A program made the translations under genes and the position numbers. The notes beneath the pieces are model-generated. The model ran no database searches. It was not told where the DNA came from and saw only the letters and a program-made list of their open reading frames with translations. Positions 29,220 through 59,459 of a stretch of 64,000 nucleotides of DNA are shown here, one piece after another. The first letter of the stretch is position 1. Each line of letters starts with the position of its first letter. Origin of the DNA: Octopus sinensis (taxonomy: Eukaryota). Where the stretch lies: NCBI RefSeq assembly GCF_006345805.1, contig NC_043001.1:96534001-96598000 (forward strand), read 5' to 3'.

Positions 29220-30235
29220 TGGATGGATGGATGGATGGATCGATGGATCGATCGATGAATGGATGGATGGATGGATGGATGGATGGAGGGATAATTATTG
29301 GCTTAAAACAAAATGCCTGTTAGAAATTATTTGTTTGTTTGAATTTAGATGGATGGATGGATGGATGGATGTCTGGATGGCTGGATAGATGGGTGGATGG
29401 GTGGATGGATGGATGGATGGGTGGATGGGTGGATGGATGGGTGGATGGATGAATGGGTGGATGGGTGGATGGATGGGTGATGGGTGAATGGGTGGATGGA
29501 TGGGTGGATGGATGGAAGGATAGATGGGTGGATGGGTGGATGGGTTGATAGCTGGATGGGTAGAAGGGTGGATGGGTGGATGAATTGATGGATGGATTTA
29601 TGGATGGATGGATGGATGGATGGATAATTATTAGTTTAAAACAAAATGCCTGTTAGAAATTATTTGTTTGTTTGAATTTAGATGGATGGATGGATGGATG
29701 GATGTCTGGATGGCTGGATAGATGGGTGGATGGGTGGATGGATGGATGGATGGGTGGATGGGTGGATGGATGGGTGGATGGATGAATGGGTGGATGGGTG
29801 GATGGATGGGTGATGGGTGAATGGGTGGATGGATGGGTGGATGGATGGAAGGATAGATGGGTGGATGGGTGGATGGGTTGATAGCTGGATGGGTAGAAGG
29901 GTGGATGGGTGGATGAATTGATGGATGGATTTATGGATGGATGGATGGATGGATGGATAATTATTAGTTTAAAACAAAATGCCTGTTAGAAATTATTTGC
30001 GTGTTTGAATTTGGATGGATGGATGGATAGATGGGTGGATGGGCGGATGGGTGAATGGGCGTATGGGTGGATGGATGGGTGGATGGATGGATGGATGGAA
30101 GGATGGATGGATGGATGGATGGATGGATGGGTGGATGGATGGATGGATAGATGGGTGGATGAGTGGATGGGTGGATGGATGGATGGATGGGTGAATGGAT
30201 AGATGGGTGGATGGGTGGATGGGTGAATGGGTGGA
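29220..30235. repeat. (GGAT/GGGT)n array with a ~335-bp higher-order duplication
   Basis: The spacer AAACAAAATGCCTGTTAGAAATTATTTG recurs three times. 29305-29636 is near-identical to 29637-29970. Confidence 0.9.
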
Positions 30236-32710
30236 ACTGCTGCATTTGTTGAGTACTTAAACACCTTACAAAATTTTAAACATTTTCTGTATGTAAGTTA
30301 GGGACTCCTTCATCGAATAACTGCTGCATTTGTTGAGTACTTAAACAGTTTATAGAGTGTTAAACATTTTCTGTATGCAAATTAGGGACTCCTGCATAGA
30401 AGAACTACAGCATTTGTCGAGTATTTAAACAGTTTATAAAGGGGTTAAGAATTTTCGGTATGCAAATTAGGGACTCCTTCATAGAATAACTGCTGTGTTT
30501 GTTGAGTATGTAGAGAGTTTATTGAGCGCTAAAAATTTTCGGTATGCAAATTAGGGATTCCATCATAGAGTAACTGCTGTATTTTTTGAGTATATATAGA
30601 GTTTATAGAGCATTAAATATTTTCGGTGCGCAAATTAGGGACTGCTGTATTTGTTGAGTATATATAGAGTTTATTGAGCGCTTAAAAATTTTCCGTATGC
30701 AAATTAGGGACTCCATCATAGAATAACTGCTGTATTTGTGCACGATATATAGAGTTTATAGAGCGGTTAAAAATTTTCGGTATACAAATTAAGGACTCCA
30801 TCATAGAATAACTGCTGTATTTGTTGAGTATACATAGAGTTTATTGAGCACTACAAATTTTCGGTATGCAAATTAGGGATTCCTTCATAGAATAACTGCT
30901 GTATTTGTTGAGCATTTATAGAGTTTATAGAGCGGTTAAAAATTTTCGGTATACAAATTAAGGACTCCATCATAGAATAACTGCTGTATTTGTTGAGTAT
31001 ACATAGAGTTTATTGAGCACTACAAATTTTCGGTATGCAAATTAGGGATTCCTTCATAGAATAACTGCTGTATTTGTTGAGCATTTATATAGTTTATAGA
31101 GCGGTTAAAAATTTTCCGCATGCAAATTAGGGACTCCTTCATAGAATAACTGCTGTATTTGTGCAGGATATATAGAGTTCTATAGAGCGGTTAAAAATTT
31201 ACCGTATGCAAATTAGGGACTCCTTCGTAGAATAACTGCTGTATTTGTTGAGTATATATAGAGTTTATAGAGCGATTAAAAATTTTCGGTATGCAAATTA
31301 GGGACTCCTTCATAGAATAACTGCTGTACTTGTGCAGGATATATAGAGTTCTATAGAGCGGTTAAAAATTTACCGTATGCAAATTAGGGACTCCTTCATA
31401 GAATAACTGCTGTTTTTGTTGAGTATATACAGCGTTTATTGAACACTTAAAAAATTTCGATATGCAAATTAGGGACTCCATCATAGAATAACTGCTGTAT
31501 TTGTTGAGGATATATACAGTTTATAGAGCGGTAGAAAATTTCCCGCATGCAAATTAGGGACTCCTTCATAGAATAACTGCTGTATTTGTGCACGATATAT
31601 AGAGTTCTATAGAGCGGTTAAAAATTTACCGTATGTAAATTAGGGACACCTTCGTAGAATAACTGCTGTATTTGTTGAGTATATATAGAGTTTATAGAGC
31701 GGTTAAAAATTTTCGGTATGCAAATTAAGGACTCCTTCATAGAATAACTGCTGTATTTGTGCAGTATATATATAGGGTTCTACAGAGCGGTTAGAAATTT
31801 TCAGTATGCAAATTAGGGACTCCTTCATAGAATAACTTCTGTATTTGTTGAGTATATATAGCGTTTATTGAGTGCTTAAAAGATTTCGGTATGCAAATTA
31901 GGGACTCCATCATAGAATAACTTCTGTATTTGTTGAGTATATATAGCGTTTATTGAGTGCTTAAAAGATTTCGGTATGCAAATTAGGGACTCCATCATAG
32001 AATAACTGCTGTATTTGTTGAGGATATATAGAGTTTATAGAGCGGTAGAAAATTTCCCGCATGCAAATCAGGGACTCCTTCATAGAATAACTGCTGTATT
32101 TGTGCAGGATGTATAGAGTTCTATAGAGAGGTTAAAAATTTACCGTATGCAAATTAGGGACTCATTCGTAGAATAACTGCTGTATTTGTTGAGTATATAT
32201 AGAGTTTATTGCGCGCTAAAAATTCTCGGTATTCAAATTAGGGACTCCATCGTAGAATTGCTGTATTTGTTGAGTATATATAGAATTTATTGAGCGCTTA
32301 AAATTTTCGGTATGCAAATTAGTGTCTCCTTCATAGAATAACTGCTGTATTTGTTGAGTATATATAGAGTTTATAGAGCGGTTAAACATTTTCGGTATGC
32401 AAATTAGTGTCTCCTTCATAGAATAACTGCTGTATTTGCTGAGTATATATAGAGTTTATAGAGCGGTTAAAAATTTTCGGTATGCAAATTAGGGGTTCCT
32501 CATAGAATAACTTCTGCATTTGTTGAGTATTTAAACAGTTTATAGAGGGGCTAAAATTTTTCGGTGTGCAAATTAGGGACTCCTTCATAGAATAACTGCT
32601 GCCTTTGTTGATTATTTAAACTGTTTATAGAGAGTTTTACACTTTCGGTATGTAAATTAGGGACTCCGTCATCGAATAACTTCTGCATTTGTTGAGTATT
32701 GATACAGTTT
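30236..32710. repeat. Tandem satellite, ~84-85-bp unit, ~29 copies
   Basis: Consensus AATTAGGGACTCCTTCATAGAATAACTGCTGTATTTGTTGAGTATATATAGAGTTTATAGAGCGGTTAAAAATTTTCGGTATGCA. Confidence 0.95.
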
Positions 32711-32828
32711 AGGTCTAATCGTTTTGTCTGCGATAAATCGGGGCTAAGTTGCAACAACATTAACAAGAACAACGGCCAAAAATATAAAAATGGGGAAATG
32801 TCATTATGCTATCGCTAGACCCGTTAGG

Positions 32829-37844: not shown

Positions 37845-38007
37845 GCGGCAAACCGTCACTGTTAGGTGGCGAATATACTCCCTGATTCCGTGTGTTACTG
37901 TTTACTTCTCCCTCAGAGATTTAATATTGTTCTCTTTCTCTCTCTTTCTCTCTCTCTCTAAATATATATATATATTATATATATATATGTATATATATAT
38001 ATATTAT

Positions 38008-50018: not shown

Positions 50019-50415
50019 TCTTTATATATATATAAGTGAAGTTGTGTGTCTGTCTCCTACGATTTAGATTCCTAACTACTCCCACATTTTGCGGTGCAGT
50101 GTAACAAAAAGCGGGTATCTTATAGCCGTGATTCATATCGAGCCCTTCTGGGTATTAGCGCGCGTCTACGATGAGTCTACGATTAAAAAAAAAATTACCA
50201 TCATTTTTTCCCATTTTTAATGTATTGTTTTTGCTATTATATAAGGTAAGTAACTCTCTAAAAATGTATTATCAAATCTCAGAACGTAAAAAGCTACAGT
50301 AACACCCCGCTTTGTGGTTAGCCATATTGAGATGGCTATTATACTTTACATCTCTAAAAATGCTTATATAGTTATTTCTCTTACAAACCCGAGCAACCCC
50401 GGGCGATACTGCTAG
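50019..50415 (+). mobile_element. Non-autonomous Helitron
   Basis: A|TCTTTATATATATAAG start, hairpin CCCGAGCAACCCCGGG, CTAG|T end. Confidence 0.85.
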
Positions 50416-56532: not shown

Positions 56533-56776
56533 TCTTTTACTCTTTTATTTCAGTCATATGACTGTGGTCATGCTGGAGCACTGCCTTTTAGTCGAGCAAA
56601 TCGACCGCAGGACTTATTCTTTGTAAGCCTAGTACTTATTCTATCGTTTTCTTTTGCCTAAACGCTAAGTGACGGGGACTTAAACACACCAGCATCGGTT
56701 ATCAAGCGATGTTGGGGGACAAACACAGACACACAAACACACAGACAGACTGATAGACAGACAGACAGACAGACAG

Positions 56777-56818
<42 letters not shown>

Positions 56819-56981
56819 GTATATATATACGATGGGCTTCTTTCAGTTTCCATCTACCAAATCCTCTCACAAGGCTTTAGTCGGCCCGAGGCTGTAGTAG
56901 ACGACACTTACCCAAGGTGCCACGGAATGAACCCAGAAACATTTGGTTGGTAAGCAAGCTACTTACCACACAGCCACTCCT
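56533..56981 (-). mobile_element. SINE family A
   Basis: Homology to family A; further copies at 57423-57720 and 58326-58838. Confidence 0.9.
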
Positions 56982-57289
56982 GAATGTTTTCTTTTGTTAT
57001 TTTTAAATTTCTTTCAGTTGTGTGACTGCAGCTGTGCTGGAGCACCGACTCGAGGAGTACTTGTCGAACAATTCGACCCCAATATTTATTTTTTAAACCT
57101 AGTACTTATTCTGTCAGATTCTTTTGCTGAAACGATAAGTTACGGGGACGTAAACACACCAACATTGGTTGTCAATGGGCGATGAGAGGAGGGGAAACGG
57201 AAAAAAGACACACTCACATAGATAAGCAATGTGACTATACACGAGCTGGTGGTGATATCTTTTCTATCTTTGTACTTTTCCCTTTCCTC

Positions 57290-57317
57290 TTTCCGATGAA
57301 ACGGGCGAAACGTCAAA
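57290..57317 (+). ncRNA. Degenerate HHR-like motif (U4C)
   Basis: TTT CCGATGA AACGGGC GAAAC GT C AAA. Stem II is largely lost; the downstream sequence loosely resembles the PLE terminal repeat. Confidence 0.35.
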
Positions 57318-57761
57318 CTCTCTCATTTCAAAGTGCGTCGAGATAATACATTCCTTGTTCACGTCCTCACGTTCGTCTTCCTCGTTATTTTAAAAATTTG
57401 TTTATTTGAATTGACTAGTAATTATTCTTCGTAAGCCGAGTACTTATTCTATCGGTCTCTTTTCTAAACCGATAGGTTACGGGGACGTAAACACACCAGC
57501 ATTGGTTGTTAAGCGATGTTGGGGGGACAGATACAGACACACAAATATATACATACATATATATATATATATGTATATATATAAAAACTACGGTTTTTTT
57601 CAGTTTCCGTCTACTAAATCCACTCAAAAAGATTTGGTCGGCCCGTGGGTATAGTAGAAGACACTTGCCCAAGTTGCCACGTGGCTGGTAAGCAAGCTAC
57701 TTACCACACAGCCACTCCTGTAGACATACCTTGGAATGATTTCAGTCCTCACCTATTATGT

Positions 57762-57800
<39 letters not shown>

Positions 57801-57806
<6 letters not shown>

Positions 57807-58227
57807 CTCTGAGCGAGATATAGACAGTAACTGCTCTATAACATAAGGGGGATCAGCCATCTGAATGTGGCTAGGGACAGGGCGGGGTGGTGGGTGTGTT
57901 ACTGATGCAGTTACTGTCTATATCTCGCTCAGAGATTTATTATTGTTTTCGAACGGATTTTCTACGCCAGTGACTGTGGTTACTGTGAAAATCCCTATAT
58001 ATCCAGCCTGTAGAGGAAGTCCCTCAACGAAGAACGGTACTTGCCATGCGTTGACAAGAGGCAATAACCTCGAAACCGGTCCGTATGTAGTATCCGTATC
58101 TTCGGGGAGGCTGATCTCCCTTTGCAGGCTGGCAAGGACACCGAGATGGTGTCAGCCCTTCTGGTGACGTTGATGATCGCCCTGTCCCTAGCCACATTCA
58201 GATGGCTGATCCCCCTTATGTTGTATA
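57801..58227 (+). mobile_element. (TA)n-embedded element with two inverted-repeat pairs and an HHR
   Basis: IR-A 57803-57834 / 57907-57938; IR-B 57837-57884 / 58178-58225; HHR at 58045-58087. Confidence 0.8.
58035..58096 (+). ncRNA. Type-I hammerhead ribozyme motif with U3-A8 core and GUC cleavage triplet
   Basis: CATGCG TTGACAA GAGG caataa CCTC GAAAC CG GT C CGTATG. Stem I is extendable (CGGTACT/AGTATCCG); palindrome ACCGGT. Confidence 0.8.
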
Positions 58228-58231
58228 TATA

Positions 58232-58328
<97 letters not shown>

Positions 58329-58622
58329 TTTTATACTTTTACTTGTTTCAGTCATTTGACTGAGGCCATAATGGAGCACTGCTTTTAGTCGAGCAAATCC
58401 CCTCTTGGACTTATTCTTTGTAAGCCTTGTACTTATTCAATCGGTCACATTTGCTAAACCGCTAAGTTACGGGGTCGTAAATACACCAATATCGGTTGTT
58501 TCACGAAGTGGGCGGACAAATGCAGACACACAAACCTACGTACACACACACATACATACATACATACATACATACACACATACAAACATACAAACATACA
58601 TACATACATACATACATATATG

Positions 58623-58672
<50 letters not shown>

Positions 58673-59459
58673 TCCGACGGGCGCCTTGACTTTTCCGTCT
58701 ATGAAATCCATTCACAAGTCTTTGGTCGGCCTGTGGCTATAGTTGAAGACCCTTGCCCAAAGTGCCGCGCAGTGGGACTGAACCCAGAACCATGTGGTTG
58801 GGAAGCAAGCTTCTTATCACACAGACACGTCTGCGCCTACCTTTGTTGTAAACTCACAAGTATCCGTCTGATTGATTACATGTGCATTTTATTACATACA
58901 TACACGCCTTGTGGACGGACGTAAAGTGTCCTTACGAAACAACAGCAAAAATGGCAGTTTTTCGACTTATTTGTAAATACTCACTGTACCATTATAATTG
59001 TTATCAATTGGATAAGCAAATGTGAATCAATTTTCCATGTTTCTTACTGGAAACCCCCCCCCCAGCATTTCTACGGTTCTAGATTAATCTTTTATTAATA
59101 TTGCAGAAGCGAATGATTCTGTAACGACGGACTAAATCTCATTTAAAGTCAGACTTTAACGTAGAGGGTTCACAATGGAATACTGTTGATCTTTACACTA
59201 CAGATGAGACATAAACAACTGCAGAACAGTTGACCTTTGTTTCAGTGATTATCTTTCGTTTCTCGTCGTAGCAAATAATGTCAGCTTCAGGCCTTTAGGC
59301 TTTGTTTGTGACTACCGTTGTTATTTTTTCCTAAGTCAATTCCTTTGATTCTGAAAACGGAATTCTCACTACTTACCTTATGCATATATAAAGTATTAGT
59401 TAATATCTGATTATCCAATGTGTAGGTGTTTACAATTGTATATTTCTGAGATGTCTGAA

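What the first reader, a model, noticed from the sequence alone, without database searches (positions are those of the whole stretch)
57801..58227. Compact element with two inverted-repeat pairs enclosing an intact U3-A8 hammerhead
Inside (TA)n, a ~32-bp perfect IR (57803-57834/57907-57938) interleaves with a ~48-bp IR with one mismatch (57837-57884/58178-58225) in the order A, B, A', B'. The two hairpins are therefore competing or pseudoknot-like. The enclosed HHR has a GUC triplet, an extended stem I and a compensatory U3-A8 core, and it is the best-preserved ribozyme in the window. Terminal inversions are typical of PLE insertions. A related fragment (GTGTTACTG...CTCAGAGATTTA) lies at 37890-37930.
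Basis: partly seen in the sequence, partly recalled or inferred. Interest (0 to 1): 0.7.

Follow-up and report, generated by a model that had tools for sequence, protein, structure and literature searches.

The report
Back-to-back retrozyme insertion, Penelope-style
This is one damaged copy of a very common 360-base non-coding repeat that carries a predicted self-cutting RNA motif, and its two hairpins come from two back-to-back partial copies, likely pasted in by a Penelope-type jumping gene, so they are likely not an RNA switch.

Summary
Observation confirmed: both inverted repeats and the U3-A8 type I hammerhead motif are at the stated places. The 'competing hairpin' reading is not supported. 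The element is a young copy of a ~360-nt protein-free tandem unit with many dispersed copies. Here a 107-nt inverted arm is joined head-to-head (3-nt microhomology) to a one-unit forward arm that lost 35 nt. A/A' and B/B' are where the arms overlap. Neither junction recurred exactly among 40 scored candidates each.

Across the family, 59 of 64 two-armed insertions end at site P on one side and site T (~42 nt further) on the other; none are P/P or T/T. They sit mostly in (TA)n, and 10 of 15 informative ones have ~12-bp target duplications. This is the published Penelope (PLE) insertion pattern. Hammerhead stems covary across sister subfamilies. U3-A8 cores and loopless palindromic stem III are published for PLE hammerheads.

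Verdict: a new member of a known kind (non-LTR retrozyme / non-autonomous PLE). The scan reported the same pattern before on other families. Cleavage, expression and the mobilising PLE remain unshown.

The parts
57757..57802 (.). Left (TA)n target microsatellite
   Evidence: any target-site duplication is hidden by the repeat
57803..57909 (-). Inverted, 5'-truncated arm: unit positions m217 to m111 (m1 = first base after the predicted cut). Its outer end is the tail-type (T) end, about 6-11 nt shorter than the usual m223-228. Contains A and B.
57907..57909 (.). Head-to-head junction of the two arms, 3-nt microhomology
   Evidence: overlap 3; exact junction found only here among 40 scored of 541 candidates
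57907..58181 (+). Forward arm, first part: m186 to m360 to m100; contains A' (the ~42-nt tail region) and the hammerhead
   Evidence: 97% to a natural monomer from L015
58034..58097 (+). Type I minimal hammerhead motif with extended stem I, U3-A8 core, 4-bp stem II, loopless palindromic stem III; predicted cut after C58081
   Evidence: cleavage untested
58178..58181 (+). Deletion junction: 35 nt of the unit (m101-m135) missing between 4-nt microhomologies
   Evidence: exact junction only here among 40 scored of 823 candidates; loose ends at this place in all four runs laid read the undeleted family sequence
58178..58225 (+). Forward arm, last part: m136 to m183 (B'); ends at site P, the pLTR-type end
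58224..58326 (.). Right (TA)n target microsatellite
37858..37935 (+). Separate, older 3' fragment (tail end) of a sister subfamily
   Evidence: nhmmer E 3.8e-6, window only

Best explanation
This is one young, internally deleted copy of a dispersed ~360-nt protein-free repeat carrying a predicted hammerhead ribozyme, made of two head-to-head arms that were likely reverse-transcribed into a TA-rich site by the enzyme of a Penelope-like element. Shown: unit length, two-arm layout, fixed outer ends, variable inner ends, target duplications in other copies, covarying ribozyme stems. Inferred: a PLE RT-endonuclease makes a staggered (~12 bp) cut in TA-rich DNA and primes both target strands on the element RNA, one at internal site P and one at site T ~42 nt downstream. 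Both cDNAs stop at variable points and are joined through microhomology. The inverted repeats are the sequence the two cDNAs share; the 35-nt gap arose by a microhomology skip during or after insertion. The hammerhead would cut only as a dimer of two units. This copy has one motif and lacks a conserved block, so it is probably a dead end.
For: Unit and copies: all 40 scored candidates (of 1,481) match at 95-100%; 30 distinct natural 344-360-nt monomers lie between tandem cores. IR origin: the window maps to [- m217>m111][+ m186>m100][+ m136>m183]. End rule: of 127 loci given, 124 classified (2 at the edge of the fetched DNA and 1 split were dropped); 64 two-armed, of which 59 P+T, 0 P+P, 0 T+T, 5 unassigned; binomial against 0.5 p 2e-18; 60 one-armed: 49 P, 9 T, 2 other. 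One event, one template: arms of one locus differ by 1.4% against 4.3% between loci (subfamily A) and 1.0% against 2.0% (D). Target duplications of 12-14 nt in 10 of 15 two-armed copies not masked by pure TA, against 1 of 19 one-armed, and that one is nearly all TA (Fisher p 2e-4). Ribozyme: in 20 diverged motifs 93.5% of cells pair, 12 of 20 pairs have changes on both sides, 0 of 500 shuffles reach this, and slid controls fall to 28-47%. Literature: inverted 5'-truncated copy plus 30-40-bp tail at one end (PMC8557442; PMC3846280 with 8-10-bp TSDs); two internal RT start sites delimiting the tail, both strands cut and extended, predicted dimer (PMC11167929).
Against: No autonomous partner was identified. 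A profile of 4 monomers found no sequence shared with the PLE itself in 50 GIY-YIG loci or 25 loci of a further family; the two hits (L085, L223) read as separate sister insertions beside the PLE. 7 of 64 junctions are mirror-symmetric within 5 nt (2.0 expected, p 0.004; 5 of 54 without the loci picked, p 0.025), which fits fold-back self-priming for a minority. 5 of 15 informative two-armed copies show no duplication. The P and T windows were set after seeing the data, and this copy's T end lies near the edge of its window. Some 'one-armed' copies may hide a very short second arm (L058). Loci were picked by similarity or intact core, not at random. The shuffle control ignores relatedness. No cleavage assay was run; in PMC4209133 minimal PLE hammerheads cut poorly even as dimers, and in the 2026 preprint 8 of 9 Xenopus dimers did not cut.
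Confidence: 0.88

Rival explanations
1. The A,B,A',B' layout is a selected RNA device (competing hairpins or pseudoknot) that regulates the ribozyme or yields small RNAs.
For: Arms are nearly perfect, and a transcript through the locus would form a stable 45-bp duplex that leaves the hammerhead stems folded.
Against: The layout is private to this copy among those scored. Perfect arms are expected from a young insertion copied from one template (0.4-0.8% from its closest relatives). B dominates A in nested folding.
Confidence: 0.03
2. Same element class, but the inversion arises by fold-back self-priming on one template (the model of Arkhipova et al. 2013), not by priming from both target strands.
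For: 7 of 64 junctions are symmetric within 5 nt, more than chance; PMC3846280 describes palindromic inverted junctions.
Against: 57 of 64 are not symmetric, this copy included (about 75-79 nt apart). Self-priming alone does not predict one P and one T end in 59 of 59 assignable cases, nor duplications confined to two-armed copies.
Confidence: 0.12
3. The unit is the solo pLTR of an autonomous PLE not yet found, left by severe 5' truncation, and not an independent non-autonomous element.
For: PLE pLTRs carry such hammerheads and tails. The search for a partner was limited (75 loci of thousands of GIY-YIG candidates).
Against: Complete units follow each other directly in arms of up to 1,375 nt. 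None of 124 classified loci showed a further unit segment after a long gap; translated PLE proteins hit only separate neighbours in the 60 loci tested. Tandem arrays occur in at least four sister subfamilies.
Confidence: 0.07

Closest known systems
Metazoan non-LTR retrozymes (Cervera and de la Pena 2020, PMC7229834, read parts 2-3 of 6; Li, Clavereau and Pollet 2026, bioRxiv 10.64898/2026.07.22.740005, read parts 1-3 of 5, supplements closed)
   Same: Protein-free tandem units of 150-450 bp (mussel 350-390 bp), one type I hammerhead per unit, well-paired predicted circle, TSDs longer than 4 bp, proposed dependence on PLEs.
   Different: Minimal-type ribozyme with loopless stem III and 3:8 pair varying C-G, U-G, U-A; short dispersed arrays, about half two-armed and inverted; circular RNA not shown here. 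The parts I read do not discuss head-to-head arms.
Insertion units of endonuclease-bearing PLEs (Craig 2021, PMC8557442, passages and section 11; Arkhipova 2013, PMC3846280, passages; Frangieh 2024, PMC11167929, parts 1-2 of 4)
   Same: Partial tandems, inverted 5'-truncated copy, 30-40-bp tail on one end, TA or AT-rich targets, TSD around 8-12 bp, microhomology junctions and deletions, two internal start sites.
   Different: No ORF; tail 42-46 nt. Those papers call the tail optional or 'often at one end', and report no strand difference in start site in vitro; here it is on exactly one end in 59 of 59 assignable two-armed copies.
Minimal PLE hammerheads, including the U3-A8 variant of Schistosoma mansoni Cercyon (Cervera and de la Pena 2014, PMC4209133, parts 1-2 of 4)
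   Same: Type I, palindromic positions 15.2-16.2, U3-A8 covariation, predicted dimer.
   Different: Here stem II is the canonical 4 bp with no extra base after A9, stem I is long, and whole subfamilies carry a U3-G8 wobble. Lunse et al. on PLE hammerhead variants (PMC5785218) was not held (title only seen) and may cover this.

Membership tests
Non-LTR retrozyme | Short (150-450 bp) unit in head-to-tail repeats | tested here: met
   344-360-nt monomers between tandem cores, 30 distinct; this copy holds one unit only
Non-LTR retrozyme | One type I hammerhead per unit | tested here: met
Non-LTR retrozyme | No protein coding, no LTRs | tested here: met
   Copies consist of unit sequence only; PLE proteins give no tblastn hit inside the units. 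PBS/PPT not searched separately.
Non-LTR retrozyme | Stable, highly paired circular fold | tested here: met
   Plus-strand circles z = -3.5, -4.8, -6.0, -5.0, -1.6 for 5 monomers, 40 shuffles each; minus strand weaker in 4 of 5. Prediction only.
Non-LTR retrozyme | Self-cleavage in vitro | not testable with these tools
   No assay; dimer cofold forms the intermolecular stem III (-39.1 against 2 x -17.1 kcal/mol)
Non-LTR retrozyme | Expressed as linear and circular RNA | not testable with these tools
   Only contigs of runs with unrecorded library type were available
PLE-mobilised insertion | Inverted 5'-truncated copy with tail on one end | tested here: met
   59 of 64 two-armed copies P+T
PLE-mobilised insertion | TA/AT-rich target and TSD of about 8-14 bp | tested here: met
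   (69 of 102 outer ends next to TA repeats); masked by (TA)n in this copy
PLE-mobilised insertion | Autonomous partner sharing terminal sequence | tested here: inconclusive
   RT plus GIY-YIG PLEs with 762-781-aa frames exist, one family with its own U3-A8 motif, but none of 75 loci shares sequence with the unit
Autonomous PLE | ORF with RT and GIY-YIG endonuclease | tested here: not met
   423-bp element, wholly unit sequence

The most novel reading that the evidence does not exclude
The strict one-P, one-T rule shows that a Penelope integration complex is an asymmetric dimer: it cuts both target strands about 12 bp apart and starts one cDNA at each of two fixed sites on the same 360-nt RNA, likely a circle or an uncut multimer, so every two-armed genomic copy records one double-priming event. 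The family, with natural C-G, U-G and U-A versions of the hammerhead 3:8 pair, would be a ready substrate set to test this and the role of the ribozyme.
Probability: 0.5. Interest if true: 0.55.

Novelty: new member of a known kind. Interest (0 to 1): 0.27.

Why it matters
The locus itself is ordinary: one broken copy among many. The family is useful because how PLEs make head-to-head insertions with a tail on one end is still open (stated in PMC8557442 and PMC11167929). These short, young, protein-free copies give a clean count that favours asymmetric priming from both strands over self-priming, and a 360-nt RNA for testing it. I found no paper describing this family, but the pattern is published qualitatively and the scan has noted it on other families.

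Tried and rejected
Rfam: no hammerhead family hit in the window or on the element alone; MIR444 and other weak hits are hairpin or microsatellite noise. Expression: no RNA holder listed; four runs laid were contigs only, library unrecorded, so nothing follows on expression, editing, circles or cut ends. No listed piece spanned this copy's junctions, which proves nothing. Footprint of cleavage: 5' breakpoints are not enriched at the predicted cut (6 of 188 within 8 nt, 8.4 expected), as expected for an uncut or circular template or for an inactive ribozyme; it does not decide. Strict C-G/U-A covariation of the 3:8 pair: rejected, since U3-G8 has 408 matches in whole subfamilies; C3-A8 is rare (2 of the first 100 listed of 854). 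Partner search: L085 and L223 hold sister units beside PLE frames but separated by microsatellite or far downstream, and not matched at the PLE's own 3' end; the PLE piece next to L073 is separated by a TA tract; L068/L069 is a sister unit interrupted by another element. Not given: duplicate loci, four multi-insertion loci (L114, L125, L131, L133) and subfamilies without a full reference monomer. Literature on activity of U3-A8 cores: searches gave only the 2014 paper and two listings I did not read. Supplements were not read; File S1 of PMC8557442 may list the partner.

Full report
Observation. The two inverted repeats are as described: 32 bp perfect (57803-57834 / 57907-57938) and 48 bp with one mismatch (57837-57884 / 58178-58225), between (TA)n tracts. 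The hammerhead motif reads stem I 58045-50, UUGACAA, a 4-bp stem II with a 6-nt loop, GAAA, CCGG, UC (C58081), stem I 58082-87, and stem I extends further with bulges. Rfam misses it. The genome (G000, 2.72 Gb) is unnamed; that it is octopus-like is my recall from its repeats and the wording of earlier scan notes, not a tool result.

A repeat family. A 233-nt query from the middle gave 1,481 first-look candidates; all 40 scored matched at 95-100%. Neighbouring hits 358-360 bp apart define a tandem unit. Against a natural monomer from L015 (m1 = base after the predicted cut) the window copy is [minus m217 to m111][plus m186 through m360 to m100][plus m136 to m183]. So B and A are m136-183 and m186-217 of the inverted arm. 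In the forward arm, which is one circularly permuted unit starting at m186, m186-217 comes first (A') and m136-183 last (B'). The stretch m111-135 has no partner because 35 nt are deleted between 4-nt microhomologies. This accounts for the order A,B,A',B'. Both junctions matched in full at 100% only here among 40 scored candidates each; one other locus covered each query at 86-89%, and the one inspected for the deletion (L136, another subfamily) has a similar but different deletion.

Sister subfamilies and the ribozyme. Core patterns gave 518 (U3-A8), 854 (C3-R8; 98 of the first 100 listed are C-G) and 408 (U3-G8) exact matches, each with 0 in the reversed control; these count motifs, not insertions. 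Monomers fall into four clusters 57-80% identical, and two more subfamilies lack a full monomer in my sample. The common stem III sequences are palindromes of different letters (CCGG, CTAG, CTGCAG, CTCGAG, CTATAG) or wobble-compatible (CCTGGG, CTGCGG). In 20 diverged motifs (27 picked, 5 truncated and 2 near-duplicates left out) 93.5% of cells pair and 12 of 20 pairs change on both sides; the 3:8 pair is U-A 12, C-G 4, U-G 4. The control ignores relatedness, so this is good but not formal evidence of selection. Circular plus-strand folds are more stable than shuffles in 4 of 5 monomers. Two copies of the motif co-fold through stem III, the known dimer mode (PMC4209133).

How copies are built. 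Of 127 loci given, 124 were classified. Outer ends fall at two sites, P (m~183) and T (m~217-228). All 59 assignable two-armed copies have one of each, in either order; 5 more had one unassignable end. One-armed copies end mostly at P (49 of 60). Inner ends are scattered, joined mostly with 0-5 nt overlap, and not enriched at the ribozyme cut. The two arms of a locus are two to three times closer to each other than to other loci. Two-armed copies outside pure TA have 12-14-nt duplications in 10 of 15 cases, one-armed copies in 1 of 19; lengths may include a base or two of chance overlap. A minority of junctions (7 of 64) are mirror-symmetric. Limits: windows for P and T were set after a first look, and loci were chosen by similarity.

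Mechanism. Published PLE insertions have an inverted 5'-truncated copy, a 30-40-bp tail on one end, microsatellite targets and 8-10-bp TSDs (PMC8557442; PMC3846280). A purified Poseidon protein cuts and extends both strands of AT-rich DNA, starts at two internal RNA sites that delimit the tail, is predicted to dimerise, and does not need ribozyme cleavage (PMC11167929). My inference is that a PLE enzyme acts in trans on the 360-nt RNA, primes both strands at P and T, and the two cDNAs are joined. Which PLE does so is unknown: frames of 762-781 aa with RT-like and GIY-YIG parts exist, one with a CX4CXXC linker and its own U3-A8 motif ('Neptune-like' is my label from the paper's description), but none of 75 loci shares sequence with the unit.

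Comparison and verdict. It works like a PLE pLTR without the ORF and meets every sequence-testable feature of a non-LTR retrozyme (PMC7229834; bioRxiv 10.64898/2026.07.22.740005). Cleavage and circular RNA are untested. U3-A8 is published. Searches for this family in print found nothing specific; the sequence look-up in earlier scan notes was blank, but word look-up showed the same two-fixed-end pattern on other units, which I had counted before seeing those notes. New member of a known kind; the hairpin layout is a by-product; interest 0.27.

Noticed in passing
genome-wide: Related subfamilies carry C3-G8, U3-G8 and U3-A8 cores in hundreds of copies each, while C3-A8 is rare: a natural series through the wobble pair.
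   Followed up: partly
L068:1850-2980 (G000:C1:73840459-73843490): A sister unit is interrupted by a 1.1-kb element with a CCHC-like reading frame and a 10-bp duplication; it looks like a LINE ORF1 piece by eye, not tested.
   Followed up: no
L136 (G000:C6:102864600-102865900): An independent deletion of nearly the same block (about m104-m136) in another subfamily; the block can fold into a small hairpin, so it may be a skip hot spot.
   Followed up: partly
L081-L084, L086, L089: A young autonomous PLE family (781-aa frame, 97-99% identical copies) with an overlapping upstream frame of 279-479 aa, and a U3-A8 minimal hammerhead near the 3' end in L038 and L047.
   Followed up: partly
window 50289-50349 (+): Weak match to unit positions ~110-171 of the family profile (nhmmer E 2e-9, window only); context not explained.
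   Followed up: no
window 57284-57320: A degenerate hammerhead-like string (CCGATGA...CGAAAC) seen by eye; it did not pass my scan.
   Followed up: no
window 56540-56980, 57430-57720, 58340-58840: Copies of a SINE-like repeat with internal microsatellites flank the insertion in the same orientation (seen by eye).
   Followed up: no
window 30235-32711: An 85-bp tandem satellite of about 29 copies.
   Followed up: no
run X16: A run labelled as a different organism (B) holds the family, with 98 contigs at 99% or more; same study as X15, so not independent.
   Followed up: no
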